Shown: piece after piece, positions 2,277-45,145 of the stretch
Layout: each line of letters opens with the position of its first letter
Position numbering within the stretch: position 1 is the first letter of the stretch
From: Nanobdellota archaeon
Lineage (GTDB): Archaea > Nanobdellota > Nanobdellia > Pacearchaeales > GW2011-AR1
Assembly (NCBI GenBank): GCA_038045945.1
Contig: JBBSXC010000001.1
Location: forward strand, 52,592-116,591
DNA length: 64,000 nt
Reading direction: 5' to 3'
Notes under the pieces: model-generated
Told to the model about the DNA's origin: nothing
The model's database searches: none
What the model saw: the letters and a program-made list of their open reading frames with translations, nothing else
Made by a program: the position numbers and the translations under genes

Positions 2277-3548
2277 TTAGTCAAGAATAATTGGTTTTGC
2301 TGTATTCAAAATGTTATCAAAGACTTTTTTTACTTTTGTGAAGTTTTTGTTACCTAATGATTTGTGTAGTATCGCTACAGGATGGTAACCCAAGTATTCT
2401 CCAACCATCATTTTGTCATTAACAGAATGCATTAATTCTTCATTGTCCACGATTATCATTGGTGCAGCTATTTTTCCAGGATAAGTGTAAACCGATAAGT
2501 TTTTTGATTTTCCAGAACGAAGATATATGTCTCTTAAATTTGCTACTGTTGCTAACCATTCATGCATCATGCGGCTGTCTTTAACATTTTTAACAAATTT
2601 TTCTTCTGTAAACACTCTTTCTTGAAATTCTTTAGTTGATGAGTCGGCTAATAACACTCTTACTTGCTGGTCTTTTTTTATTAGTTCTATTATTTTTTTA
2701 CGCCCTTCATGAACAGCTGATAGGCATGTTGATCCTAAAATATCTATTGACTTATTTGCTTTTTCGAAAAAGTTGTACAGGTTTATTTCGTGACGTGAAT
2801 CAAAAACCTTTTTGTCGCTTAATGCTATTGCCCATAATTTTTCAAAATAACTTTGAAATGATGCTGCTGCGCTTTGAGAGTGGATAACTACTGATATTAT
2901 TGGTCTTGCATCCCATAAAACCCATGCTACTTTATCTCCATAAACCCATGTGGAGGTTGAGCTTTTGTGAGCGGACTTTAAAAAACGCAGTTCTCCGCTA
3001 ATATTCTTCATAAATGGTAGTGAGTCTGACAAGTCGTTAAGAATAACTCTTGATTTTACACCAAGCCTCTTTTTTTTCATTTGAGCTGATTTGTAGTAGT
3101 CTTCTCCGACGTTACGAACCATTTCGCTACTTCTTCCTATTGCCACGTATTCCTTTTTCGTTTTAGCACACCAGTCTAACATTCCTTCAAAAAATGATTT
3201 GAAACCGTTAAATCCTATTAGTGTATCGATTTTTGATTCTTTTTCGGTTTCTCTTAATGATTTAGAACTATCAATTATTTTTTTTATTTTTGCTAGTTCG
3301 CTCTTTAGGTTATCTTTTGCTTCCTCACCATATCTTTGCAAGGCCATTATGTTAATAGAATAAACTTTTAGCCCGTTTGTTAGGTTGCATAAAACAAGGC
3401 CTTTTTCTTCTAATCTTCTTATAGAGTTGTAAGCTGTTCCTTTGTGAAGTCCTAGATGTTTAATTACGCTACCAAGTGATGTTTCTCCAGCTGTTAAAAC
3501 TTCGTTAAATATTGATTCTTCTACCTTTGTTAGCTTAAATGTCTTCAT
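2277..3548 (-). CDS. TrmB-family transcriptional regulator with long C-terminal domain
   Basis: N-terminal wHTH (LGSVIKHLGLHKGTAYNSIRRLEEKGLV) as in sugar-specific regulator TrmB, followed by ~330-aa C-terminal region. Confidence 0.55.
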   Translation of the reverse strand: MKTFKLTKVEESIFNEVLTAGETSLGSVIKHLGLHKGTAYNSIRRLEEKGLVLCNLTNGLKVYSINIMALQRYGEEAKDNLKSELAKIKKIIDSSKSLRETEKESKIDTLIGFNGFKSFFEGMLDWCAKTKKEYVAIGRSSEMVRNVGEDYYKSAQMKKKRLGVKSRVILNDLSDSLPFMKNISGELRFLKSAHKSSTSTWVYGDKVAWVLWDARPIISVVIHSQSAAASFQSYFEKLWAIALSDKKVFDSRHEINLYNFFEKANKSIDILGSTCLSAVHEGRKKIIELIKKDQQVRVLLADSSTKEFQERVFTEEKFVKNVKDSRMMHEWLATVANLRDIYLRSGKSKNLSVYTYPGKIAAPMIIVDNEELMHSVNDKMMVGEYLGYHPVAILHKSLGNKNFTKVKKVFDNILNTAKPIILD

Positions 3549-3634: not shown

Positions 3635-4453
3635 ATGGGGATCTATATACCGTATCCCTCTTCAAATCATACTACATCTGTAAGTGACTTTGTTATAACT
3701 ACTTTAACTTCTAAATGGCCTTTAACTGCTAAAAAACTCCATTACCATATTAAGTCTTATCAGAATTGTTCTTATCAGGGCGTTCATAAAGCTCTTAAAC
3801 AACTTTTAGAGTTTCAAGTTGTTGAAAAGGTTGGTAGAGAGTACTTTATCAGTAAGGATTGGTTACGATCCACTGCTAATCATTTGAAGCTTATTGAGCA
3901 GCAGTATAATAAGCCTAATAAAGCGGTTAATAACACTTTTATTTTTAATAGTTTAGAAGAAGCTGAGAGGTTTAAGAACGATCTTCATTGGAATCATCTT
4001 TATCATGGTGGACCTCAGGTCCTTTATGCTCATGTTTATCATTTAAGGTCTCCTATTATTAATACTGAGAGCATTCTTAAAAAGATTGAGAAGGATAGAG
4101 CTTCTAATAATGAGTCTTTTATTATTGTTCATGGCCAGACTAAGCTTGATAAGCATTGTAAGCATTTTTATGAGCAGTCTGGCAAGAATAATGTTGTACT
4201 TGGTAAAATTTTAGAAAATGATTGTGAGTTAAGAGTTATGGGTGATACTATAACTCAGATGTATCTTCCTAAAGAGCTTATTAGTCAACTTGACGAGTTT
4301 TATGATTCTGCTTCTATTAATAATCTCGAATTATACAAATTGTATGGTTTATTCAAAGAACAACACCAGATCAGGATTACTGTAACTATTAATAAGGAAA
4401 TGGCTAACTTGTTAAAAAAGCAGATTCTTCAGTCTTTTATATCTTCAAATTGA
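3635..4453 (+). CDS. hypothetical protein, N-terminal wHTH-like
   Basis: YQGVHKALKQLLEFQVVEKVGREYFISKDWL resembles a winged-helix recognition segment. Confidence 0.35.
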   Translation: MGIYIPYPSSNHTTSVSDFVITTLTSKWPLTAKKLHYHIKSYQNCSYQGVHKALKQLLEFQVVEKVGREYFISKDWLRSTANHLKLIEQQYNKPNKAVNNTFIFNSLEEAERFKNDLHWNHLYHGGPQVLYAHVYHLRSPIINTESILKKIEKDRASNNESFIIVHGQTKLDKHCKHFYEQSGKNNVVLGKILENDCELRVMGDTITQMYLPKELISQLDEFYDSASINNLELYKLYGLFKEQHQIRITVTINKEMANLLKKQILQSFISSN

Positions 4454-5141
4454 ATACTCTGATGGCATTGCCATGTAATATCAGGTTTTTTTCTTCTTGT
4501 GTTAATTCAGATTTTAACACTTTTAGTATTTCTATTTGGTGATCTGAGAATGGTACGTCTGATCCGAACATTATTCTGTCTGCCCCTACTTGTTTTGCTC
4601 TTAGTTTTATTATGAATGGTGATGATACTATTGATGTTTCCACGTACACATTGTCGCATGCTTGCATTCTTGAGAAGAATTCGTCTGAGTCTCCAGCAAA
4701 ATGTCCAAACACGAATGGTATTTTTGGGTAACGTTTAGCTAATGTTAATAATCTTTCTGGATCTGTTGATGATAATCCTTCTTTTCTTGTGTGTATTATT
4801 ATGGGTTTTGATTTTTCTGATAATATTTTGAAGAACCATGATAATTGTTCATCTAAAGGGTCAAAGTCTTCTCCTCTAGGGTGGAGTTTTATTGCTACAA
4901 AATCGTCTAATACTCTAACAAGTATATTACGATCAATCACTTTAGGATTGCATCTTAAGACTGGTAATAAGTCTTGATGTAAATCTCTTAACTCTAAACT
5001 ATGCTCAAAAACATCTCTCTGAGATTTTAGAGGAAAAACAAGTGATTTAGTCACACCATGTTTTTTCATTGATTCTAACAGTTGTAGTGAGTTAAGACCT
5101 GTTTTTCCTTCTCCAACATGTGTATGGACATCAATTATCAT
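4437..5141 (-). CDS. amidohydrolase-2 family metal-dependent hydrolase (TIM barrel)
   Basis: MIIDVHTHVG N-terminal metal-binding motif, HTRKEG, FGSDVPF; overlaps upstream gene end (5138/5141). Confidence 0.7.
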   Translation of the reverse strand: MIIDVHTHVGEGKTGLNSLQLLESMKKHGVTKSLVFPLKSQRDVFEHSLELRDLHQDLLPVLRCNPKVIDRNILVRVLDDFVAIKLHPRGEDFDPLDEQLSWFFKILSEKSKPIIIHTRKEGLSSTDPERLLTLAKRYPKIPFVFGHFAGDSDEFFSRMQACDNVYVETSIVSSPFIIKLRAKQVGADRIMFGSDVPFSDHQIEILKVLKSELTQEEKNLILHGNAIRVFNLKI

Positions 5142-5689
5142 AATAATTCTACTCCTATACCAAATGCGTCTCCTCTTTCATATCTTAATACACTATATGT
5201 TCTATTTAAGTTGTCATCCTTTGATAATGGACGAGTTTTTGTCAGCATTCGTCCATAACATCCCTCGACTATTTTTCTTGTTATTTTATAATCTTTTATT
5301 TTTTCTTCAGATACGCATTCATCTAGTATGTTTCTTAATGAATGTTCAATAATAGGGTTTTGTGTTGTTGTTTTTATATTCCTTAGTTTACGTGATAGTC
5401 CTTCATCAACTCTGCACCTCAAAAGGCTATAATAATGACCATTTTTGTGTTTTTCTTCTCTTACTACTGAGCCTGCTAAGTAAAAACTTCCTTCTGATAG
5501 GCTCATTGATGAAAAGCCTACAGCCTTCCCACGTTCATAAGTAACAAATACTAATTCTGGTTCCTGTATATGCCTCTTTACTTCTTCTGGGCTCATTCCT
5601 GAACCAAAAGTAGCAATTGATAAGTCTACTAGTTCATTCATAACACCTTCTGGTATTGGATTTGTTGATTTTTCGAACTTGTTTATCAT
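5138..5689 (-). CDS. hypothetical protein, possible GNAT-like acyltransferase fold
   Basis: beta-strand/acetyl-CoA-like segment VVREEKHKNGHYYSLL; overlaps both neighbours by 4 nt. Confidence 0.35.
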   Translation of the reverse strand: MINKFEKSTNPIPEGVMNELVDLSIATFGSGMSPEEVKRHIQEPELVFVTYERGKAVGFSSMSLSEGSFYLAGSVVREEKHKNGHYYSLLRCRVDEGLSRKLRNIKTTTQNPIIEHSLRNILDECVSEEKIKDYKITRKIVEGCYGRMLTKTRPLSKDDNLNRTYSVLRYERGDAFGIGVELL

Positions 5690-6279
5690 AATGGTTCTCC
5701 TAAAATTATTCTATTCTCTCTTGATGTTACAGGTAAAAATTTTATTTCGGCTTCGAACCCTTCGCTTTTAACTCTTCTTAATCTTGCTTCATCTATGAAG
5801 TGTCCAACTGATTGATAATTCTGAACGCTTTCACCACGCATTAAGTCAGCATATGCCAGAAGATTTCTTTGTGTATGACAACATGTTTGCACAACAAATG
5901 GACTTTTGTTTTTTACTGCTGCTGATATTAATTTGTCTGTTAATTCTCCACATAAGTGCAAACCTGTTAGGAATGCATCTGTTGGTATATCCGTATAATC
6001 TTCTATTCTGCCTACAAATCTAATAAATGGCTTCTTTATTAGTGCAGAATAATAATCAGCTTTTCTTATTAATGCTGGTTCAACCGTTCTTACTGACTTA
6101 ACACTGTCATGTCTTGATAGCATGTAAGCTAATTGATGATCACCTGAGCCTACATCAACTATTTCATAACCGCCTGATATAGAATCAAAAAATTTTGTTG
6201 CTTCTTTATAAAAAGCGAGAACCTTGTCATCAAGGTTAATCTTTCTCTTAGACATCTCTAGCCACCATTCTACCGACAT
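5686..6279 (-). CDS. SAM-dependent methyltransferase
   Basis: EIVDVGSGDHQLAYML motif I, LHLCGELTD motif; overlaps neighbours. Confidence 0.55.
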   Translation of the reverse strand: MSVEWWLEMSKRKINLDDKVLAFYKEATKFFDSISGGYEIVDVGSGDHQLAYMLSRHDSVKSVRTVEPALIRKADYYSALIKKPFIRFVGRIEDYTDIPTDAFLTGLHLCGELTDKLISAAVKNKSPFVVQTCCHTQRNLLAYADLMRGESVQNYQSVGHFIDEARLRRVKSEGFEAEIKFLPVTSRENRIILGEPL

Positions 6280-7810
6280 GGTACAAGTGTTTAATTAATC
6301 CATTAACTCTTTCATCTGTATGGTGATTCATTATTTGGACGTATAATCCTCCAAATCCTTCCGCTTTTTCGTTTAGCCCTACTTTTCTTTTTGATTCTTT
6401 GTATGCTGCTAAGTCTTCTAGTGTTCTTACTTTCATAGTATCACTGTGGGATATGTAGTATCTTTCTTCGTCTCCTGATTCATTAATCCTGTGATATACT
6501 CGATCATTAGCTTTATGTCCCCCTTCTTTCATCTCAAATGGTATTATTGGGCATGCTGAACCAGTTATTAATTTGAACGGGCTTTCTGGGCTTTCTAGTG
6601 CTTGTGATAATTTTTTTGTTAGTCCTTGCATCCTTTCTGCTTCTTTCCTTAGACCGCTCATTCCTCTGCTTGTTAAATAAGCCCATAGCATTACCGCGTT
6701 ATGGCCTGATCTTGATATGAACATTCCGGGTAATTGTCCCATTTCTTCAACAAATTCATAACCTTGGCTTTTATCACTGTGTAAATATGGTGATTCTAGA
6801 CTTGTCTCGTTCATTAGTTCTGTATCTCTGAACATTACAACTCCTCCCCCGTATACTGCCCCTGGTGTTTTGTGAGGGTCTAAAATTATTGCTTTTACTC
6901 CTTCTATCCCAAAGTCCCATTCTTGATGGATTGATTTTTCTCCAATAACAGATGAGAACAAAAATTGTTGTGCTGCATCCACAATTATTGGTGGAGTATT
7001 TTTTCCTCCGTATTTTTCTTTTAGTATTTCAAACATCTCACTTACTTTGTCAAGTCTTCCCTTACTAACGTCACCTACTGTTGGAATAACTGCTAGTATA
7101 TTATCTCCTTGCTTGTGAATTTCATCAATTCTTTCTCTAAAACTTTTAAGGTCTGTTTGATATTTATTATCTAATCCATAGTGTACGACTGAGTCAATAC
7201 CTAAGCCTAAAACATCTGCTGCTCTCTCAACACATAGATGTGCGTCAACGGGTACAAGAATTTTTGGTTTGTCTCCTAAGAAACTTTGTAAGCCTGAAGC
7301 TCTAATTTTTGGTTTATCATGTTTGTTATTGTTTGCGAATGAAAAACCTTCTTTTTCTCTGAAATATTTGTTTCTAAAGGAATAAAGTGCTTGAGTCATT
7401 GATTCGCTGCCTCCCGAGGTAAACCAGGCGTTGCATCTTCTAATGTTTGGGTGGTGCATTAATTCGCCAAGCATGCTCATTGTTTCCCTTTCTAACTCAA
7501 ACATTCCTACAAACATTGCAGGATCAACCAGGTTAGGGTGTATTCTTCCAACTACACTAGCTGCTAGACTATAAGAGAATTGGTCTGGTAAAGTTCCAGG
7601 TTTAGCGTCCATTATTCCTTTATCATAACGAACGGCGCATCTTTCAACTGCTTTTTCCACTTCTTCGACTAATAATTCTTTATCAATGCCTTTTTCTGGT
7701 ATTTTAAAGCATCTTTTTCTTTGTGGAATTATATCAACTAACTTTTTTTTGTTTTGTTGTTTTTCTGAAGAATGATAGCGCTGTATTGGATCAAAAAAAT
7801 CTGCTGTCAT
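6248..7810 (-). CDS. PLP-dependent group II amino-acid decarboxylase
   Basis: TSGGSESM (S-G-G-S-E-S signature of group II decarboxylases) and PLP-lysine context ILDPHKTPGAVYGGGVV; 520 aa. Confidence 0.8.
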   Translation of the reverse strand: MTADFFDPIQRYHSSEKQQNKKKLVDIIPQRKRCFKIPEKGIDKELLVEEVEKAVERCAVRYDKGIMDAKPGTLPDQFSYSLAASVVGRIHPNLVDPAMFVGMFELERETMSMLGELMHHPNIRRCNAWFTSGGSESMTQALYSFRNKYFREKEGFSFANNNKHDKPKIRASGLQSFLGDKPKILVPVDAHLCVERAADVLGLGIDSVVHYGLDNKYQTDLKSFRERIDEIHKQGDNILAVIPTVGDVSKGRLDKVSEMFEILKEKYGGKNTPPIIVDAAQQFLFSSVIGEKSIHQEWDFGIEGVKAIILDPHKTPGAVYGGGVVMFRDTELMNETSLESPYLHSDKSQGYEFVEEMGQLPGMFISRSGHNAVMLWAYLTSRGMSGLRKEAERMQGLTKKLSQALESPESPFKLITGSACPIIPFEMKEGGHKANDRVYHRINESGDEERYYISHSDTMKVRTLEDLAAYKESKRKVGLNEKAEGFGGLYVQIMNHHTDERVNGLIKHLYHVGRMVARDV

Positions 7811-7812
7811 TT

Positions 7813-8847
7813 CTAATAGTATTTTAGAAGCATTACTTTTCTTACTTCTTCCATAGTTTTGCTTGCTTCCTCCCTTGCTTTTTCTCCTCCTTCTCTTAGT
7901 ACTGTCTCTATTGTTTTGTCTGATATGCTGTCAAACCTGTTTCTGTATTCTTTGTATGTTGTTGACATTAATGGTGGTAGTTTTTGTTTGCATTCTCCAC
8001 ATCCTAGTATTGCTTGCCTACAACCGTAGTATACTTCAGCGAATTTTTCTTGGTTGTATATTCTGTGAAGGTCGTAAACGCTGCATTCGTCTGGGTTTCC
8101 TGCGACTTGCATACTTGTTCTTTTTGGGTCTATTCTCATCTTTGCAACTTTTTCTGATAATGTTTTTCCTGTGTCTTGTGGGCTTATCGTGTTTGCGTAA
8201 CTCTTTGACATTTTTCTTCCGTCTGTTCCTAGTATTCTTGGCGCGTTACTTGTCAGTATTTCTGGTACTGGGAATATTGGTCCGTATGTTGCGTTGAATC
8301 TTTTTGCTAATTCTTGGCATAGTTCTATGTGTGGTTTTTGGTCGTCTCCTACAGGTACATATTTTGCTTTGTGTACTAGTATGTCTGCTGCTTGTAATAA
8401 TGGGTATCCTAAAAACCCGTAACTTACTTGGTCTGCTTCTAATTTTTTTCTGTTATGTCCTTCTTCTTTCATTATTTGTACGTATTCTGTGAATGTTGGC
8501 ATTCTCTGAAGTCTTGCTACTGTGTTTAGCATTGATAACGCTACGTGTAACTCTGCGTGTTGTGGTACGTCTGATTGTACAAATATTGTTGATTTTTTTG
8601 GGTCTATTCCGAAAGCTAACCAGTCACGAACCATGTCATAAGTGTTTTTTCTTATTTCTTTTGATTCTGTGTTTGTTGTTAGTGCGTGCCAGTCTGCTAC
8701 GAAGAATTTGCATGCGTATTCTTCTTGTAATTGTAACCATTTTCTTAATACTCCTTCTATGTGCCCTATGTGTAGTCTTCCTGTTGGTCTCATCCCGGAT
8801 AATACTGTAGGTTTTAATTCATCATTAGTTTTTTCTTCTAAACTCAT
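7813..8847 (-). CDS. trpS: tryptophanyl-tRNA synthetase, bacterial type, with C-terminal Cys cluster
   Basis: LSGMRPTGRLHIGH (HIGH), GIDPKKSTIFVQS (near-identical to E. coli GIDPEKSTIFVQS), KMSKS; C-x20-C-x6-C-x2-C near C-terminus resembles [4Fe-4S] TrpRS motif. Confidence 0.9.
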   Translation of the reverse strand: MSLEEKTNDELKPTVLSGMRPTGRLHIGHIEGVLRKWLQLQEEYACKFFVADWHALTTNTESKEIRKNTYDMVRDWLAFGIDPKKSTIFVQSDVPQHAELHVALSMLNTVARLQRMPTFTEYVQIMKEEGHNRKKLEADQVSYGFLGYPLLQAADILVHKAKYVPVGDDQKPHIELCQELAKRFNATYGPIFPVPEILTSNAPRILGTDGRKMSKSYANTISPQDTGKTLSEKVAKMRIDPKRTSMQVAGNPDECSVYDLHRIYNQEKFAEVYYGCRQAILGCGECKQKLPPLMSTTYKEYRNRFDSISDKTIETVLREGGEKAREEASKTMEEVRKVMLLKYY

Positions 8848-9155
8848 AATTATTCATTATTAAAAAGAAACGAAATAGCTTTGGTTGAAGCTTATTCTTT
8901 TTTTAGTGTTATTATTATAAACTAATAGTTGATTTTTTCCTTTATTACTTTAGTATTATGTAGTTTTTCTTGCACAAAACCTTTTTATAGCTCATTATTC
9001 CTTGTTTATTTAATGGAAAGAAGTTTTGGTTCATTAGTCATGGTTTGTAGTATTATGCCTAGATGGACTTATACACCTTCTTCTCATATTTTTGGTTAAG
9101 AGGCTAATTTTTTAGCACTTCTTAAAAAAATAAACTTTTTTACCTCTAAACCAAA

Positions 9156-9518
9156 ATGACTAATAAAAATAAATCTAATGCTTTTGAATTTGACTTAGTA
9201 CTGTCAAGTGTTTTGTCTTTTGTTAAGTGTAAGATTCCTCAGAAACATATTGATGCTCTTAGAATAATTCATCAGGTTGATAGTGAGCTTAATGCTACTT
9301 CTCTTATTACTCTTATTTCTGGTAGTTTGTACTGTTCTACTTCTACTTCTTGGAACATTTTAAGGTCTCTTAATAAGCACGGATTTATTGTTTGTGGTAC
9401 TAAGGATGATAAGGGTAAACTTGTTCGTCTTACAAATTTCGGTATAGTAGTAATAGGAGGTGTTTTTGATGACAAAAAAGTCTTGTCCAAGAATCATAGA
9501 AGAATATTTGCTTCATGA
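9156..9518 (+). CDS. winged-helix (MarR/PadR-like) transcriptional regulator, putative
   Basis: WNILRSLNKHGFIVCGTKDDKGKLVRLTNFG wing pattern. Confidence 0.4.
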   Translation: MTNKNKSNAFEFDLVLSSVLSFVKCKIPQKHIDALRIIHQVDSELNATSLITLISGSLYCSTSTSWNILRSLNKHGFIVCGTKDDKGKLVRLTNFGIVVIGGVFDDKKVLSKNHRRIFAS

Positions 9519-9756: not shown

Positions 9757-10827
9757 ATGATGTTAGCTGGTACATTCTCAAATACTGATATAAGAAAAGC
9801 CATAAGTAGCGGGGAGATTATTTCTAGAGCTGAAATAAGTGATGTTCAAGTTCAGCCTTCTTCTCTTGATTTAACTATTGGTAGAAAAATTTGGTGTTTA
9901 CCTTACTCTTCAATACCTCAGGGGAGAATAGAGGATTACTTGGATGGGAAGAAGTCTGATGTTGAAGATAAAGACGAGACTTATTTGCATAAGAGAGTTT
10001 TATACGTTGCTGAAATAAATGAGGAGTTAAGATTACCTGGCGATGTTGAAGGAAAATCTGAGCCTAAGAGTTCAACTGGTAGGATTGATGTTCATGTAAG
10101 GCTTCTTACGCAGGGCGGACAAGCTTATGATCAGGTGAGACCTGGTTATAATGGAAAATTGTTTTTAGAAATTTTTTCTAAAACTTTTGATTTAAAAATA
10201 AAGTCTGGCACTTCTCTTAACCAGTTAAGATTATCTGATAATGGTTGCGAATTTTTGAGTAAGTCTAGGCTTGAGGAGTTATGCACTGATCAGAGAGTTA
10301 TTTTTACCGGCGATGGTAAGGCTATTAGCCCTGATGAATTTTTGGAGGATGATTCTATATCTATGACTCTTGATCTTAGTGGTGATAATCCTGGCTATAT
10401 TGGTAGGGATGATGCTCCCCCTCTTGATCTTTCTCGCTTCGATCATGGTTTACTTAAATATTTTGATGTTCCTAAAGTTTTTGATGAGGGTCTTGTTACT
10501 AGGCCTGGTGCTTTTTATTTGCTTAGGTCTAGGGAGAGGGTTAGGATTCCTCGCAGGTATGGTGGTGAAATGGTTAGTATGGAAACAAATCTTGGTGAGT
10601 TTAGGGCTCATTATGCTGGTTTTTTTGATCCTGGCTTTAATGCTCGTGCGGTTTTAGAGGTTAGGAATATTGGTGGTTCTCCTTTCTTGTTAAGGCATGG
10701 TCAAAGGATTGCTAACCTCAAACTTTTAAGGTTGAAGACTAAGCCTTCAATAATTTATGGTAGGGGCATTGGTAGTAATTATCAGGGTCAGCAATTAAAC
10801 CCCGGTAAATATTTTAAAGCAATTTAG
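9757..10827 (+). CDS. dCTP deaminase family protein, long (two-domain) form
   Basis: N-terminal DIRKAI..VQPSSLDLTIG resembles Dcd (..VDVRLG); 356 aa fits long DCD family. Confidence 0.6.
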   Translation: MMLAGTFSNTDIRKAISSGEIISRAEISDVQVQPSSLDLTIGRKIWCLPYSSIPQGRIEDYLDGKKSDVEDKDETYLHKRVLYVAEINEELRLPGDVEGKSEPKSSTGRIDVHVRLLTQGGQAYDQVRPGYNGKLFLEIFSKTFDLKIKSGTSLNQLRLSDNGCEFLSKSRLEELCTDQRVIFTGDGKAISPDEFLEDDSISMTLDLSGDNPGYIGRDDAPPLDLSRFDHGLLKYFDVPKVFDEGLVTRPGAFYLLRSRERVRIPRRYGGEMVSMETNLGEFRAHYAGFFDPGFNARAVLEVRNIGGSPFLLRHGQRIANLKLLRLKTKPSIIYGRGIGSNYQGQQLNPGKYFKAI

Positions 10828-14775: not shown

Positions 14776-15531
14776 TCATTTTTTAGCCAAACCCCATAGT
14801 AGTCTAGCATATGTTTTAAAAGAATCTGCAACATCTTGGTTTTGTATAACTACGGAAAATGACTTCCCCTTATTAATACCGATAGTAATAGTGTCAGCAT
14901 ATATCTCCATCCACGCATGAGTGATTAACTCTTTTGGCATATAACGAACCTCACTTAATGGATAAGAAGCAGATTCTTTACCAAAAGGATACCGAGCATA
15001 ATCATTATACAGATAATAACATTTAATTCCCTTTTTGTATCGGCGTTTGTGATAGTCTGAAAAGTATGGAGTTAGCTTATCATAAGGAGTTCTTGCAATT
15101 CCTATAATCCACATTTCATCACCTTTTTTCATAATATTTAGGGTTCTTTCTCTAGCCGTTTGAATGCCCTTTAGTCCATCATAAACTTGGGCTGTCTCAG
15201 AAGTAAGAGCTGTTTTGTGCTTAGATTCTAACTGAGGAATAATCTCTTGAAGTTCATGTTCTTGTTGTTTAAGTCTGTCTTGCTTTTCTTTATTGTATAC
15301 TAAGAGTCTTTCGGGGTTAGTGGCTTTGAAACGTTTAATATCGTCCTTGATAATATGAGAAACAAGACCTTTCTTAGCTAAACGACTTAAAATTTGGTAC
15401 ACTTTAGAGAGAGAAACTCCAGATTCTTCAACAATCGGTCCAGAGGTGACTTCTCCTAGGCCTATAAGAGCAAGGTAAACTTTTATTTCTCCCGAAGTAA
15501 GACCTAATTCACGTAATGGTTCGATATTCAT
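14776..15531 (-). CDS. TrmB-family wHTH transcriptional regulator
   Basis: N-terminal LTSGEIKVYLALIGLGEVTSGPIVEESGVSLSKVYQILSRLAKKGLV. Confidence 0.55.
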   Translation of the reverse strand: MNIEPLRELGLTSGEIKVYLALIGLGEVTSGPIVEESGVSLSKVYQILSRLAKKGLVSHIIKDDIKRFKATNPERLLVYNKEKQDRLKQQEHELQEIIPQLESKHKTALTSETAQVYDGLKGIQTARERTLNIMKKGDEMWIIGIARTPYDKLTPYFSDYHKRRYKKGIKCYYLYNDYARYPFGKESASYPLSEVRYMPKELITHAWMEIYADTITIGINKGKSFSVVIQNQDVADSFKTYARLLWGLAKK

Positions 15532-27982: not shown

Positions 27983-28054
27983 TGGGTCCGGAGAGATTCG
28001 AACTCTCATCCTTCGCTCTGGAGGCGAAGAGACTAACCGTTATCCTACGGGCCC
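27983..28054 (-). tRNA. tRNA-Trp (anticodon CCA)
   Basis: acceptor GGGCCCG/CGGACCC (one C-A mismatch), anticodon stem TTCGC/GCGAA with loop CTCCAGA, T-arm GAGAG-TTCGAAT-CTCTC; no intron. Confidence 0.8.
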
Positions 28055-37903: not shown

Positions 37904-38041
37904 TGAGCCTATGCGGATTTGAACCGCAGACCTCCGGCTTTCTTAGCACGTATATGCCACTAAAGCATTAGTTCGCTCAAGTTGCTTGAGAGAACAACGT
38001 CTTATAAGACCGGCGTTCTAACCGGGCTGAACTATAGGCTC
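37904..38041 (-). tRNA. tRNA-Ile (anticodon TAT = UAU) containing a ~63-nt intron at the canonical 37/38 position
   Basis: acceptor GAGCCTA/TAGGCTC (perfect), D-arm GTTC-AGCCCGGTTA-GAAC, anticodon stem CCGGT...GCCGG with loop CTTATAA interrupted after position 37, T-arm TGCGG-TTCAAAT-CCGCA. Confidence 0.7.
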
Positions 38042-44002: not shown

Positions 44003-45145
44003 ATGACTGTTTTTATGGTAAAGGGTGAATCAATGAAGGTTACTCCTTATGAAGCAAAAGGGGAAATAGACTATGATCAATTAGTAAAACAGTTCGGTGT
44101 TGAGAGGATTGATCAAGATTTAATGAAGAGGATAGAAAAGAAGGCAGGTGAGCTACATTTCATGCTTCGCAGAGGAGTCTTTTTTGCGCATAGAGACTTA
44201 AAATTTGTACTTGAAGAGTACGATAAGGGAAACAAGTTTTATCTTTACACTGGGAGAGCTCCAAGTGGACCAATACATTTAGGGCATCTACAACCTTGGA
44301 TTTTTACTAAGTGGTTACAGGATACTTTTGGTGTAGAGTTATGGTTTCAATTCCCTGATGAAGAAAAATTTTTGTTTAAACCAGAGATGAGTTTTGAGGA
44401 TGGACAAAAATATCTTAATGATAATATGTTGGACATTATAGCTTTAGGTTTTGATCCTAAAAAGACTCACTTCTTGATAGATACTAAGCATGCAAATGCT
44501 ATGTACAAAGAAGCATGTAAAGTAGCAAAAAAGATTACTTTTAACATGGTAAGGTCATCATTCGGATTTGATGAAAGTGATAATATAGGATTAATATTTT
44601 ACACTAGTATGCAAGCTGTTCCAGCATTTTTGCCTTCGGTAATCGCAAAAAAGAATATTCCTTGTTTGATTCCTCACGCAGTTGACCAAGACGTCCACTT
44701 TAGGTTAACTAGGGATATTTTGCCAAAACTAGGTTATTATAAACCTGCAAGTATTCAATGCGTATTTTTGCCGCCTTTACAGGGGGTTGCTGGAAAGATG
44801 AGTTCATCACAAAGCAGTGAAGCAATACTAACTACTGATACACCAAAGGAAGTTGAGCGTAAGATTAACAGGTACGCTTTTAGTGGGGGAAGAGATACCA
44901 TTGAGGAGCATCGTAAACTTGGAGGAAATCCTGATGTTGATGTTTCTTACCAATATTTGAGGATGCTATTAGAAGATGATGATAAGAAACTAAAAAAGAT
45001 TCATGATGATTATAAGAGTGGAAAGATGACAACAGGCGAATTAAAGAAATATACTATTGATAAAATTAATTCTTTTTTAGCAGTTCATCAAAAGAAGCGC
45101 GAAGAAGCAAAAAAGGTTGTTGACAAATTTATTTGGAAAGAATGA
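44003..45145 (+). CDS. trpS: tryptophanyl-tRNA synthetase, archaeal/eukaryotic type
   Basis: YLYTGRAPSGPIHLGHLQPWIFTKWLQDTFGVELWFQFPDEEKF and AFSGGRDTIEEHRKLGGNPDVDVSYQYL are near-collinear with human WARS catalytic core; KMSSS. Confidence 0.9.
   Translation: MTVFMVKGESMKVTPYEAKGEIDYDQLVKQFGVERIDQDLMKRIEKKAGELHFMLRRGVFFAHRDLKFVLEEYDKGNKFYLYTGRAPSGPIHLGHLQPWIFTKWLQDTFGVELWFQFPDEEKFLFKPEMSFEDGQKYLNDNMLDIIALGFDPKKTHFLIDTKHANAMYKEACKVAKKITFNMVRSSFGFDESDNIGLIFYTSMQAVPAFLPSVIAKKNIPCLIPHAVDQDVHFRLTRDILPKLGYYKPASIQCVFLPPLQGVAGKMSSSQSSEAILTTDTPKEVERKINRYAFSGGRDTIEEHRKLGGNPDVDVSYQYLRMLLEDDDKKLKKIHDDYKSGKMTTGELKKYTIDKINSFLAVHQKKREEAKKVVDKFIWKE

What the first reader, a model, noticed from the sequence alone, without database searches (positions are those of the whole stretch)
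4437..8847. Five-gene overlapping operon pairing a second, bacterial-type TrpRS with an amine-modifying enzyme set
The genes are, in minus-strand order, bacterial-type trpS (7813..8847), a PLP-dependent group II decarboxylase (6248..7810), a SAM methyltransferase (5686..6279), a GNAT-like protein (5138..5689) and an amidohydrolase (4437..5141). Their ends abut or overlap by 3-32 nt, so they very likely form one transcript and are translationally coupled. A canonical archaeal-type TrpRS sits elsewhere in the window at 44003..45145, which makes this copy auxiliary. In bacteria, auxiliary TrpRS copies are typically self-resistance genes for tryptophan-analogue antibiotics (indolmycin, chuangxinmycin), or they supply Trp-tRNA to tRNA-dependent biosynthesis. 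A decarboxylase plus an N-acyltransferase plus a methyltransferase is the enzyme logic of tryptamine/serotonin-to-melatonin-type pathways. Taken together this looks like an undescribed tryptophan-derived metabolite or resistance cassette in an archaeal genome.
Basis: partly seen in the sequence, partly recalled or inferred. Interest (0 to 1): 0.8.

Follow-up and report, generated by a model that had tools for sequence, protein, structure and literature searches.

The report
Extra tryptophan-tRNA ligase paired with decarboxylase
A tiny symbiotic (DPANN) archaeon carries a second, bacterial-type tryptophan-tRNA ligase in one operon with a new kind of amino-acid decarboxylase, and the pairing recurs across many related archaea, resembling the tyramine and histamine gene clusters of lactic acid bacteria but built around tryptophan.

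Summary
The five minus-strand genes are real and sit at the stated coordinates. They are:
- a bacterial-type, Fe-S-motif TrpRS;
- a group II PLP decarboxylase of a new subfamily;
- a PF13679 methyltransferase;
- a classical GNAT;
- an Amidohydro_2 hydrolase.

An intact archaeal TrpRS (44003-45145) and an A73 tRNA-Trp lie elsewhere in the window.

The main new result is conservation. In 13 of 14 independent loci from other DPANN archaea (GC 30-50%), this rare decarboxylase family lies within four genes of a TrpRS gene. In 11 of them the two genes are directly adjacent. Two different TrpRS lineages fill that position.

The other three genes are not a fixed set. The amidohydrolase occurs only in this window. 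The methyltransferase, and a GNAT+deacylase pair, also accompany the extra TrpRS where no decarboxylase is present, sometimes with trpE/G or a trpD-like gene.

The closest known architecture is the tyrS-tdc and hisS-hdc biogenic-amine loci. The melatonin-like reading and the indolmycin-type resistance reading have no specific support. The decarboxylase substrate is inferred, not shown.

Verdict: a new variant of a known kind, and moderately interesting.

The parts
7813..8847 (-). TrpRS2: a bacterial-type tryptophan--tRNA ligase with the four-Cys [4Fe-4S] motif (C255-x20-C276-x6-C283-x2-C286). HIGH and KMSKS are intact.
   Evidence: TIGR00233 304.5 bits against 176.75. Best solved structure is 2g36, T. 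maritima Fe-S TrpRS, at 301 bits, and all four Cys align. Motifs and Trp-site positions checked. It falls in a DPANN clade next to bacterial Fe-S TrpRS.
6248..7810 (-). Group II PLP-dependent decarboxylase of a new, rare subfamily, called F0 here. The PLP lysine is K314, in DPHK. Substrate not established; Trp is inferred from context.
5686..6279 (-). PF13679 (Methyltransf_32) SAM-dependent methyltransferase, called F4 here. An alternative start at 6255 gives 189 aa. Substrate unknown; it could be tRNA or a small amine.
   Evidence: PF13679 34.8 bits against 27, plus a weak TRM13 hit. Conserved HxCGxLTD and PCC(Y/H) motifs. Present in 5 of 7 TrpRS2 loci sampled without regard to the decarboxylase. 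NCBI start.
5138..5689 (-). Single-domain GNAT N-acyltransferase, called F5 here. It belongs to a family with no Pfam model of its own.
4437..5141 (-). Amidohydro_2 metal-dependent hydrolase with an N-terminal HxH motif (DVHTH). It occupies the position held by an AstE/AspA-type deacylase in other loci, and is not conserved elsewhere.
   Evidence: PF04909 86.8 bits. Solved-structure matches 3cjp and ACMSD are weak. No homologue in any of the 24 fetched loci.
8848..9155 (.). 308-bp AT-rich intergenic region upstream of TrpRS2. It is the presumed promoter region shared with the divergent ORF at 9156-9518.
   Evidence: Read directly from the sequence. No promoter test was made, because the available scanner covers only bacterial sigma-70 sites.
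9156..9518 (+). Divergently transcribed 120-aa ORF of unknown family. It is a possible small DNA-binding regulator by position only.
   Evidence: No Pfam or NCBIfam hit. In other loci the same position holds Lrp/AsnC regulators. NCBI names it a hypothetical protein, MEK6918486.
44003..45145 (+). Canonical archaeal-type TrpRS, the presumed housekeeping copy.
   Evidence: NF008927 512.5 bits against 478. HLGH and KMSSS intact. 56-57% identical to the archaeal TrpRS that shares a contig with a TrpRS2-decarboxylase pair in L004.
27983..28054 (-). The only tRNA-Trp(CCA) in the window. It has archaeal identity (G1-C72, discriminator A73) and a C4-A69 mismatch.
   Evidence: ARAGORN and Rfam; sequence read. 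The identity rule (bacteria G73, archaea A73) is taken from PMC5370408.
2277..3548 (-). TrmB-like winged-helix regulator downstream of the operon. Whether it belongs to the operon is uncertain.
   Evidence: PF01978 25.2 bits, just below the cutoff of 25.6. A paralogue lies at 14776-15531, and family members sit near the cluster in L011 and L014.

Best explanation
This is a tryptophan-dedicated auxiliary module of DPANN archaea. It is built like the tyrS-tdc and hisS-hdc loci of lactic acid bacteria.

The operon co-expresses two core genes:
1. A catalytically intact, horizontally acquired bacterial Fe-S-type TrpRS.
2. A novel group II PLP decarboxylase that most likely acts on L-tryptophan or a close derivative, giving tryptamine.

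The extra TrpRS would keep tRNA-Trp charged while the Trp pool is being drained, and/or while tryptamine, a competitive TrpRS inhibitor, accumulates. It would work alongside the housekeeping archaeal TrpRS.

The GNAT and its partner hydrolase (Amidohydro_2 here, an AstE/AspA-type deacylase elsewhere) would N-acylate and deacylate the amino acid or the amine. The PF13679 methyltransferase would methylate either the amine or tRNA.

**Shown:** gene identities, intact catalytic motifs, operon packing, and the conserved TrpRS-decarboxylase linkage.

**Inferred:** the decarboxylase substrate, the role of TrpRS2, and the targets of the GNAT, hydrolase and methyltransferase.
For: **Linkage**
- 13 of 14 independent loci of the decarboxylase family have a TrpRS gene within four genes or fewer. 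In 11 they are directly adjacent on the same strand. GC content of the loci runs from 30 to 50%.
- Two unrelated TrpRS lineages fill that position. Usually it is the bacterial Fe-S type. In L012 and L013 it is a divergent archaeal-type paralogue.
- In L021, a different PLP-decarboxylase-like gene sits next to TrpRS2.

**TrpRS2 looks like a working TrpRS**
- HIGH, KMSKS, the Trp-site residues and the four Cys match T. maritima TrpRS, which was shown to charge tRNA-Trp.

**The decarboxylase looks active**
- It keeps the PLP lysine, the Asp and the His.

**Context and precedent**
- The neighbourhood is tryptophan-centred: trpE/trpG, a trpD-like gene, a weak chorismate-mutase-like match, and Lrp/AsnC regulators in sister loci.
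- Precedents: the tyrS-tdc-tyrP-nhaC operon, and tryptamine as a competitive TrpRS inhibitor (PMC3315439; PMC12607914).
Against: - The window operon has no precursor/product antiporter, which is a defining part of the lactic-acid-bacterial loci. Transporters appear only sporadically (L004 MFS, L020 Na+/H+ exchanger).
- TrpRS2 also occurs without the decarboxylase (L017, L019, L020, L022). Coupling to the decarboxylase therefore cannot be its only role.
- Both tRNA-Trp genes seen (window and L021) have A73, whereas bacterial TrpRS normally needs G73. Efficient charging by TrpRS2 is not guaranteed.
Confidence: 0.45

Rival explanations
1. Tryptophan-limitation regulon. The extra TrpRS is a starvation-adapted or high-affinity enzyme. 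It is co-regulated with Trp-supplying functions: deacylases and peptidases that release Trp from N-acyl-Trp or peptides, and trpE/G/D. The decarboxylase would serve some other need, not Trp degradation.
For: - Lrp/AsnC-type amino-acid-responsive regulators flank many loci.
- AstE/AspA-type deacylases, M20/M28 peptidases and an amidohydrolase recur.
- trpE+trpG and a trpD-like gene lie next to TrpRS2 in L019, L022, L007 and L023.
- The methyltransferase and GNAT families are almost Trp-free: 0 Trp in 5 of 7 and in 5 of 6 members, against a window mean of 0.95%.
- Mukai et al. made a similar suggestion for other extra TrpRS genes in DPANN and CPR organisms (PMC5370408).
Against: - It gives no reason why a decarboxylase is the tightest partner of TrpRS, across two TrpRS lineages.
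- TrpRS2 and the decarboxylase themselves are not Trp-depleted.
- The active site of TrpRS2 is unchanged relative to housekeeping bacterial enzymes.
Confidence: 0.18
2. One reading: a biosynthetic cassette for a Trp-derived antimetabolite that inhibits archaeal/eukaryote-type TrpRS. The product might be used against the host archaeon. The bacterial-type TrpRS would be the self-resistance enzyme.
For: - Resistance by a second, evolutionarily distinct aaRS copy is well documented (PMC9437257).
- The two TrpRS copies here are of different domain types.
- Tryptamine competitively inhibits TrpRS.
- The accessory gene content varies between loci, as it does in biosynthetic gene clusters.
Against: - No core enzymes of known TrpRS-inhibitor pathways are present.
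- The His43-equivalent and all other checked Trp-site residues are the same as in housekeeping bacterial Fe-S TrpRS.
- TrpRS2 occurs in loci that lack the decarboxylase, so resistance to the decarboxylase's product cannot be general.
- The producer's own tRNA-Trp is A73, so TrpRS2 would first have had to adapt to it.
Confidence: 0.12
3. A tRNA-centred pathway. TrpRS2 charges a tRNA. The partner enzymes then act on the aminoacyl-tRNA or on the tRNA itself, giving a parallel channel comparable to SepRS/SepCysS or PSTK/SepSecS/SelB. The partners would be the PLP enzyme, the GNAT, the PF13679 methyltransferase and, in L012, an EF-1alpha paralogue.
For: - PF13679 includes P. aeruginosa PA14_68100, whose loss removes nearly all tRNA Gm and about a quarter of Cm. 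There are also weak TRM13 hits.
- The methyltransferase is the most constant partner of TrpRS2 in the sample taken without regard to the decarboxylase (5 of 7 loci).
- L012 has a divergent EF-1alpha paralogue directly after the decarboxylase, and a second EF-1alpha after the canonical TrpRS. The two are 43% identical.
- L021 carries a tRNA-Trp gene and a third TrpRS type next to the module.
Against: - The GNAT is a plain single-domain acetyl-CoA-type fold, not a Fem or L/F-transferase type.
- The methyltransferase proteins are not notably basic (pI 5.7-9.0).
- The EF-1alpha association is seen in a single locus.
- No dedicated tRNA gene lies in or beside the window operon.
Confidence: 0.1
4. 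Chance adjacency of unrelated housekeeping genes.
For: Compact DPANN genomes pack unrelated genes tightly. The amidohydrolase is not conserved in the other loci.
Against: The TrpRS-decarboxylase adjacency recurs in 13 of 14 independent loci at 28-36% protein identity and across 30-50% GC, and with two different TrpRS lineages.
Confidence: 0.03

Closest known systems
Tyramine (tyrS-tdc-tyrP-nhaC) and histamine (hdcA-hisS) loci of lactic acid bacteria
   Same: A second aaRS gene for the cognate amino acid sits directly beside a group II PLP amino-acid decarboxylase, while a housekeeping aaRS is encoded elsewhere. The cluster-linked aaRS genes form their own clade (PMC3315439; PMC12607914; the histamine case is from my own knowledge).
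   Different: - The amino acid here is Trp, and the organisms are DPANN archaea.
- The decarboxylase is a new subfamily, only 84 bits (profile search) to any solved structure.
- The window operon has no antiporter gene.
- No T-box leader is expected in archaea.
- The extra aaRS comes from another domain of life.
- GNAT, deacylase and PF13679 genes accompany it.
Thermotoga maritima TrpRS (TM0492, PDB 2g36), the [4Fe-4S] TrpRS family
   Same: - Whole-length match (residues 14-341), 301 bits.
- All four cluster-ligating Cys.
- HIGH and KMSKS.
- The YP(V/L)LQAADIL Trp pocket.
   Different: - The first Cys spacing is x20, against the x21-24 reported for the family.
- The host is an archaeon with an A73 tRNA-Trp and a second, archaeal TrpRS.
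- It is embedded in an operon with a decarboxylase.
Extra TrpRS genes of DPANN and CPR organisms (TrpRS-A / TrpRS-A-like with ORF1; Mukai et al. 2017, PMC5370408)
   Same: - Additional TrpRS copies coexist with the canonical archaeal TrpRS in DPANN.
- They lie in operon-like, Trp-related settings.
- Their function is unresolved.
- The divergent archaeal-type TrpRS genes of L012, L013 and L021 may belong to these groups.
   Different: - The window's extra copy is bacterial-type, not TrpRS-A.
- That paper reports no decarboxylase partner: the word is absent from its text.
- I did not look for ORF1 in the loci studied here.
Deinococcus radiodurans TrpRS II - nitric oxide synthase pair, and indolmycin-resistant TrpRS1 of Streptomyces
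   Same: An auxiliary bacterial-type TrpRS teams up with a Trp-modifying enzyme, or protects against a Trp analogue (PMC9437257; PDB 1yi8 and 2a4m appear among the hits).
   Different: - No NOS gene and no antibiotic pathway genes are present.
- TrpRS2 is much closer to housekeeping Fe-S TrpRS (301 bits) than to TrpRS II (about 166 bits).
- No resistance-type active-site change is seen.
MfnA (archaeal tyrosine/aspartate decarboxylase)
   Same: It is the best-scoring characterised relative. It shares the fold and the DPHK, VDAA and AH motifs.
   Different: - 114 bits against a cutoff of 299.
- F0 is about 120 residues longer, with a conserved N-terminal extension and insertions.
- Its genomic context is different.

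Membership tests
Bacterial-type TrpRS (TIGR00233 / PF00579) | Score above the curated cutoff of the TrpRS equivalog model | tested here: met
   304.5 bits against 176.75. The TyrRS models score only 56-59 bits.
Bacterial-type TrpRS (TIGR00233 / PF00579) | Class I signature motifs HIGH and KMSKS, and the Trp-pocket Asp (Bst D132) | tested here: met
   HIGH at residue 26, KMSKS at residue 212, and YPLLQAADIL with the Asp.
Bacterial-type TrpRS (TIGR00233 / PF00579) | Aminoacylation of the organism's tRNA-Trp | not testable with these tools
   The only tRNA-Trp genes seen have A73. Bacterial enzymes normally prefer G73 (PMC5370408).
[4Fe-4S] TrpRS (TmTrpRS type) | C-x(21-24)-C-x6-C-x2-C motif in the anticodon-binding domain | tested here: met
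   C255-x20-C276-x6-C283-x2-C286. All four align with Tm C236, C259, C266 and C269, with the first spacer two residues shorter. Cluster binding itself cannot be tested here.
Group II PLP-dependent decarboxylase (PF00282) | Pfam score above the gathering threshold, and the PLP-binding Lys, Asp and His | tested here: met
   103.9 bits against 27. K314 (DPHK), D278 (VDAA) and H191 (DAH) are invariant in 13 homologues and align with MfnA. The fold is confirmed.
MfnA / PanP housekeeping decarboxylases | Score at or above the equivalog cutoff | tested here: not met
   MfnA 114.2 bits against 299.4. PanP 63.9 bits against 606.
Aromatic amino-acid / tryptophan decarboxylase (AADC, TDC, RUMGNA_01526 type) | Closer in sequence or structure to AADC/TDC than to decarboxylases with other substrates | tested here: not met
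   - Profile against the PDB: R. gnavus TrpDC 63 bits, plant TDC 36-40 bits, MfnA 84 bits.
- This lowers 'it is an AADC'. It does not lower 'it may decarboxylate Trp'.
Lactic-acid-bacterial biogenic-amine locus (tyrS-tdc-tyrP-nhaC type) | A cognate aaRS paralogue adjacent to the decarboxylase, with another aaRS copy elsewhere | tested here: met
   Window. 13 of 14 loci. L004 has both TrpRS types on one contig.
Lactic-acid-bacterial biogenic-amine locus (tyrS-tdc-tyrP-nhaC type) | A precursor/product antiporter encoded in the locus | tested here: not met
   No transporter in or beside the window operon. Only sporadic MFS or Na+/H+ exchanger genes elsewhere.
Lactic-acid-bacterial biogenic-amine locus (tyrS-tdc-tyrP-nhaC type) | The decarboxylase acts on the amino acid of the linked aaRS | not testable with these tools
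   Needs an enzyme assay.
Antibiotic self-resistance TrpRS (indolmycin / chuangxinmycin type) | Active-site divergence from sensitive housekeeping enzymes, and co-located inhibitor-biosynthesis genes | tested here: not met
   Eight checked positions, including the H43 equivalent, are identical to those of Thermotogae and Halanaerobiales TrpRS. No such biosynthetic genes are present. The significance of H43 is recalled from my own knowledge.
GNAT superfamily | GNAT fold with a motif-A-like beta4-alpha3 segment | tested here: met
AANAT / serotonin N-acetyltransferase | Specific similarity to arylalkylamine N-acetyltransferases | tested here: not met
Melatonin-type pathway (hydroxylase + AADC + AANAT + ASMT) | Presence of a Trp/tryptamine hydroxylase and an ASMT/COMT-type O-methyltransferase, with the set co-occurring | tested here: not met
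   No hydroxylase is present. The methyltransferase is PF13679. The GNAT and methyltransferase occur with TrpRS2 in loci that lack the decarboxylase.
PF13679 methyltransferases | Pfam score above the gathering threshold; SAM-binding motif I | tested here: met
   34.8 bits against 27 in the window, and 28-43 bits in six homologues. A DVGSGDH / CAGNG motif is present. The substrate class (tRNA or small molecule) was not determined.
Amidohydro_2 (PF04909) | Pfam score above the threshold; N-terminal HxH metal motif | tested here: met
   86.8 bits against 26.4. MIIDVHTHVG is seen in the translation.

The most novel reading that the evidence does not exclude
DPANN archaea may run a second, dedicated tRNA-Trp channel. 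Its parts would be an auxiliary TrpRS (bacterial Fe-S type, or TrpRS-A-like), a PF13679 tRNA methyltransferase, a PLP enzyme and, in at least one lineage, its own EF-1alpha paralogue. The channel would make or deliver a modified aminoacyl-tRNA. That would be a tRNA-dependent amino-acid transformation or a recoding system, not a small-molecule pathway.
Probability: 0.08. Interest if true: 0.92.

Novelty: new variant of a known kind. Interest (0 to 1): 0.62.

Why it matters
- **Genome economy.** DPANN archaea have very small genomes and usually lack amino-acid biosynthesis. A conserved module that adds a second TrpRS from another domain of life, plus a private decarboxylase family, should therefore serve something important to their symbiotic life. 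Candidates are Trp economy, an amine signal or weapon aimed at the host, or proton-motive energy from decarboxylation.
- **A general rule.** It would extend the 'aaRS paralogue + cognate decarboxylase' design from Firmicutes (Tyr, His) to archaea and to tryptophan. That would suggest a general principle: a dedicated aaRS protects tRNA charging when the same amino acid is being consumed.
- **A natural test case.** A bacterial-type TrpRS working in a cell whose tRNA-Trp has archaeal identity (A73) bears on how tRNA identity barriers are crossed. It is also relevant to designing orthogonal aaRS/tRNA pairs.
- **New enzymes.** The decarboxylase, GNAT and PF13679 families here have no characterised close relatives.

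Tried and rejected
1. **Word-index protein search with the GNAT** found only the protein itself. The exhaustive HMMER search was needed to find the family.
2. **GTDB representative genomes** held only one decarboxylase locus. The metagenome scan and exact-protein look-ups supplied the rest.
No model exists, so its substrate class stays open. The profile search against the PDB gave only a weak BamL N-methyltransferase hit (E 0.004).
4. **Fold search of the decarboxylase model** could not discriminate the substrate.
5. **A cluster-borne tRNA-Trp, especially a G73 one.** None was found in 19 loci. L021 has a tRNA-Trp, but it is A73.
6. **Remote homology among the roughly 300-350-aa unknown ORFs** that follow the decarboxylase or deacylase in L001, L003/L010, L004 and L011. 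None was found.
7. **Compositional signs of a recent island.** GC is 0.33-0.36, against a window value of about 0.34.
8. **Trp depletion of the operon proteins** as a starvation signature. It appears only in the methyltransferase and GNAT families, not in TrpRS2 or the decarboxylase.
9. **A Fem or L/F-transferase-type (aminoacyl-tRNA-dependent) identity for the GNAT.** I considered it and rejected it as the leading reading, because the protein is a single classical GNAT domain.
10. **A microcin-C-like tailoring analogy** (MccD/MccE). I considered it from memory only. MccE's decarboxylase belongs to a different fold family, so I did not pursue it.

Full report
**1. The observation**

The junctions are as follows:
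- TrpRS/decarboxylase: a 2-nt spacer.
- Decarboxylase/methyltransferase: a 32-nt overlap. It is 8 nt with the 189-aa start that NCBI uses.
- The last two junctions: ATGA 4-nt overlaps.

NCBI annotates the genes as consecutive proteins MEK6918481-85 of a 'Nanoarchaeota archaeon' MAG, on a 506-kb contig. GC content of the region does not differ from the rest of the window.

**2. The five proteins**

*TrpRS2 (7813-8847).*
- It passes the TrpRS equivalog model: 304.5 bits against a cutoff of 176.75.
- Its best solved relative is T. maritima TrpRS, PDB 2g36, at 301 bits.
- The residue-level alignment shows HIGH, KMSKS, the YPxLQAADIL Trp pocket and all four [4Fe-4S] cysteines. The first spacer is x20 rather than x22.
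- TmTrpRS was shown experimentally to charge tRNA-Trp, and the motif is known from organisms with one or with several TrpRS genes (PMC2954223).
- Eight active-site positions are identical to those of bacterial housekeeping Fe-S TrpRS.
- Its nearest relatives are DPANN proteins at 49-58% identity, followed by Thermotogae, Halanaerobiales and Peptococcaceae at 44-50%.
- A rough neighbour-joining tree puts the DPANN proteins in one clade next to the bacterial ones. This points to horizontal acquisition.

*Decarboxylase (6248-7810), called F0 here.*
- It is a group II PLP enzyme: PF00282 103.9 bits.
- K314 in DPHK, D278 and H191 are invariant and align with MfnA.
- It is far from every characterised family. 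The MfnA model gives 114 bits against a cutoff of 299, and the family profile scores at most 84 bits against the PDB.
- Only about 25 relatives, at 28-36% identity, were found in two very large collections.

*Methyltransferase (5686-6279), called F4 here.*
- It is PF13679, with a weak TRM13 hit.
- The one PF13679 protein I found with experimental data is P. aeruginosa PA14_68100. A transposon-mutant screen assigned it tRNA Gm/Cm 2'-O-methyltransferase activity (bioRxiv 10.1101/2024.07.01.601603).

*GNAT (5138-5689), called F5 here.*
- It has no special affinity for AANAT or for Fem-type enzymes.

*Amidohydrolase (4437-5141).*
- It is a small Amidohydro_2 hydrolase with an HxH motif.

*Elsewhere in the window.*
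- The archaeal TrpRS at 44003-45145 passes its equivalog model and keeps HLGH and KMSSS.
- The single tRNA-Trp has the archaeal A73 discriminator.

**3. Conservation: the main new result**

I fetched loci through the decarboxylase family and, separately, through TrpRS2. I then compared them with my own ORF calling and clustering.

*Loci found through the decarboxylase.*
- Of 14 independent decarboxylase loci with enough flanking DNA, 11 have a TrpRS gene directly adjacent on the same strand.
- Two more have one within one to four genes (L023, L001).
- Only L007 has none in the DNA available.
- These loci span 30-50% GC and 28-36% protein identity.
- In L024 the gene order is reversed (decarboxylase, then TrpRS2).
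- In L012 and L013 the adjacent synthetase is not the bacterial type. It is a divergent archaeal-type TrpRS paralogue with a degenerate KMSKS loop, and L012 also carries a canonical archaeal TrpRS.
- In L021 a different PLP-decarboxylase-like gene sits beside TrpRS2. A third, divergent archaeal-type TrpRS with an A73 tRNA-Trp gene lies next to it.
- L004 has TrpRS2, the decarboxylase and the canonical archaeal TrpRS on one contig.

Recruitment of different TrpRS lineages to the same partner argues for a functional coupling to tryptophan, not inherited synteny.

*Loci found through TrpRS2.*

The other three window genes are not a fixed set. In the seven loci reached through TrpRS2 alone, the partners were:

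| Partner | Loci (of 7) |
|---|---|
| PF13679 methyltransferase | 5 |
| AstE/AspA-type deacylase | 4 |
| F5 GNAT (always directly followed by that deacylase) | 3 |
| F0 decarboxylase | 2 |
| trpE+trpG | 2 |

- A trpD-like gene with BtpA, a weak chorismate-mutase-like match (L017), M20/M28 peptidases, a HisZ-like + MBL pair and a PPDK_N-like protein also recur.
- Lrp/AsnC regulators often flank the module.
- The window's amidohydrolase has no counterpart in any other locus. It sits where the deacylase normally sits.

**4. Mechanism**

The closest known architecture is the tyramine locus of lactic acid bacteria, tyrS-tdc-tyrP-nhaC. The histamine locus is analogous. In these loci:
- a second cognate aaRS is encoded beside a group II decarboxylase;
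- the cluster-linked aaRS forms its own clade;
- it is induced when the amino acid is scarce and is thought to sense or safeguard the pool (PMC3315439; PMC12607914).

Tryptamine is a known competitive inhibitor of TrpRS.

My best-supported model (confidence about 0.45) is as follows. F0 decarboxylates Trp or a close derivative. TrpRS2 secures Trp-tRNA supply while that happens. The GNAT and hydrolase acylate and deacylate the amino acid or amine. The methyltransferase acts on the amine or on tRNA.

What is shown:
- the gene identities;
- the intact motifs;
- the operon packing;
- the conserved linkage.

What is inferred:
- the decarboxylase substrate;
- the role of TrpRS2;
- the targets of the three accessory enzymes.

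Weak points:
- no antiporter in the window operon;
- TrpRS2 also occurs without F0;
- the A73 identity of the tRNA-Trp genes, which bacterial TrpRS normally disfavours (PMC5370408).

**5. Rivals**

- *Trp-limitation regulon* (0.18). Regulators, deacylases/peptidases, trp genes and nearly Trp-free methyltransferase and GNAT families support it. It does not explain the decarboxylase.
It is plausible in principle (PMC9437257). But there is no active-site change, there are no pathway enzymes, and TrpRS2 occurs without the decarboxylase.
- *tRNA-centred channel* (0.10). Hints are the PF13679 tRNA-methyltransferase precedent, the EF-1alpha paralogue that follows the decarboxylase in L012, and the tRNA-Trp/TrpRS trio in L021. 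Against it: an esterified carboxyl cannot be decarboxylated, and the fold is closest to true decarboxylases.
- *Chance adjacency* (0.03). The conservation data effectively exclude it.

**6. Comparison with what is known, and novelty**

- TrpRS2 is a member of the Fe-S TrpRS family; the defining features were tested and met.
- The decarboxylase is a member of the group II superfamily. It is not MfnA/PanP, and it is not demonstrably an AADC/TDC.
- The locus works like the lactic-acid-bacterial biogenic-amine loci, but it fails one defining feature (the antiporter).
- Extra TrpRS genes in DPANN have been described before (TrpRS-A with ORF1; Mukai et al. 2017). That paper does not mention a decarboxylase.
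- My literature searches found no description of a TrpRS-decarboxylase module.

I rate it a new variant of a known kind, with interest 0.62. It is a conserved, lineage-wide and directly testable association, but its chemistry is unresolved.

Noticed in passing
window 37904-38041 (-): Rfam finds a 138-nt tRNA (54.9 bits) that ARAGORN missed. It carries an intron of about 60 nt after the anticodon loop. The loop reads CTTATAA, which suggests tRNA-Ile(UAU).
   Followed up: partly
window 27983-28054 (-): The tRNA-Trp(CCA) has a C4-A69 mismatch in the acceptor stem and an A73 discriminator, with no encoded CCA. The L021 tRNA-Trp also has A73, but its acceptor stem is fully paired (with one G-U pair).
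   Followed up: partly
L012 6534-7874 and 9293-10150: Two EF-1alpha paralogues, only 43% identical. The more divergent one (TIGR00483 504 bits, below the cutoff of 540) directly follows the TrpRS-like + decarboxylase pair. The other follows the canonical archaeal TrpRS.
   Followed up: partly
L021 4065-8689: A compact Trp cluster: tRNA-Trp(A73) and a divergent archaeal-type TrpRS (339 bits on NF008927, below the cutoff of 478) on one strand. Facing them are a PLP-decarboxylase-like gene that is not of the F0 family, bacterial-type TrpRS2 and the PF13679 methyltransferase.
   Followed up: partly
L020 8086-9970; L021 8716-10605: A HisRS-like protein with no anticodon-binding domain (HisZ-like, 325-334 aa) is paired with a metallo-beta-lactamase-fold protein. 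The pair recurs next to TrpRS2 and the methyltransferase in two loci (46% and 44% identity between the loci).
   Followed up: no
window 9757-10827 (+); L004 9887-11101: A long two-domain dCTP deaminase (PF06559/PF22569) lies close to the TrpRS2-decarboxylase pair, both in the window and in L004 (29% identity). This may be coincidence.
   Followed up: no
window 5138-6279 and homologues in L001-L022: The PF13679 methyltransferase and the GNAT families are almost free of tryptophan: 0 Trp in 5 of 7 and in 5 of 6 members of about 200 aa. The window mean is 0.95%. TrpRS2 and the decarboxylase are not depleted.
   Followed up: partly
L012 3409-4701; L013 8822-9967: The divergent archaeal-type TrpRS paralogues next to the decarboxylase keep HxGH. 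Their KMSKS loop is degenerate (MKPMDTE and DGDVMSDK), so they may not be active synthetases.
   Followed up: partly
L019 8028-8632: The PF13679 methyltransferase gene appears split into two short ORFs (125 aa and 76 aa). This is probably a frameshift or a pseudogene. The sister locus L022 has it intact.
   Followed up: no
window 2277-3548 (-), 14776-15531 (-), 3635-4453 (+): Two paralogous TrmB-like winged-helix proteins, and a 272-aa ORF of unknown family, flank the operon. I read the start of the 272-aa ORF as helix-turn-helix-like by eye only. It converges on the operon end and overlaps it by 17 nt.
   Followed up: no
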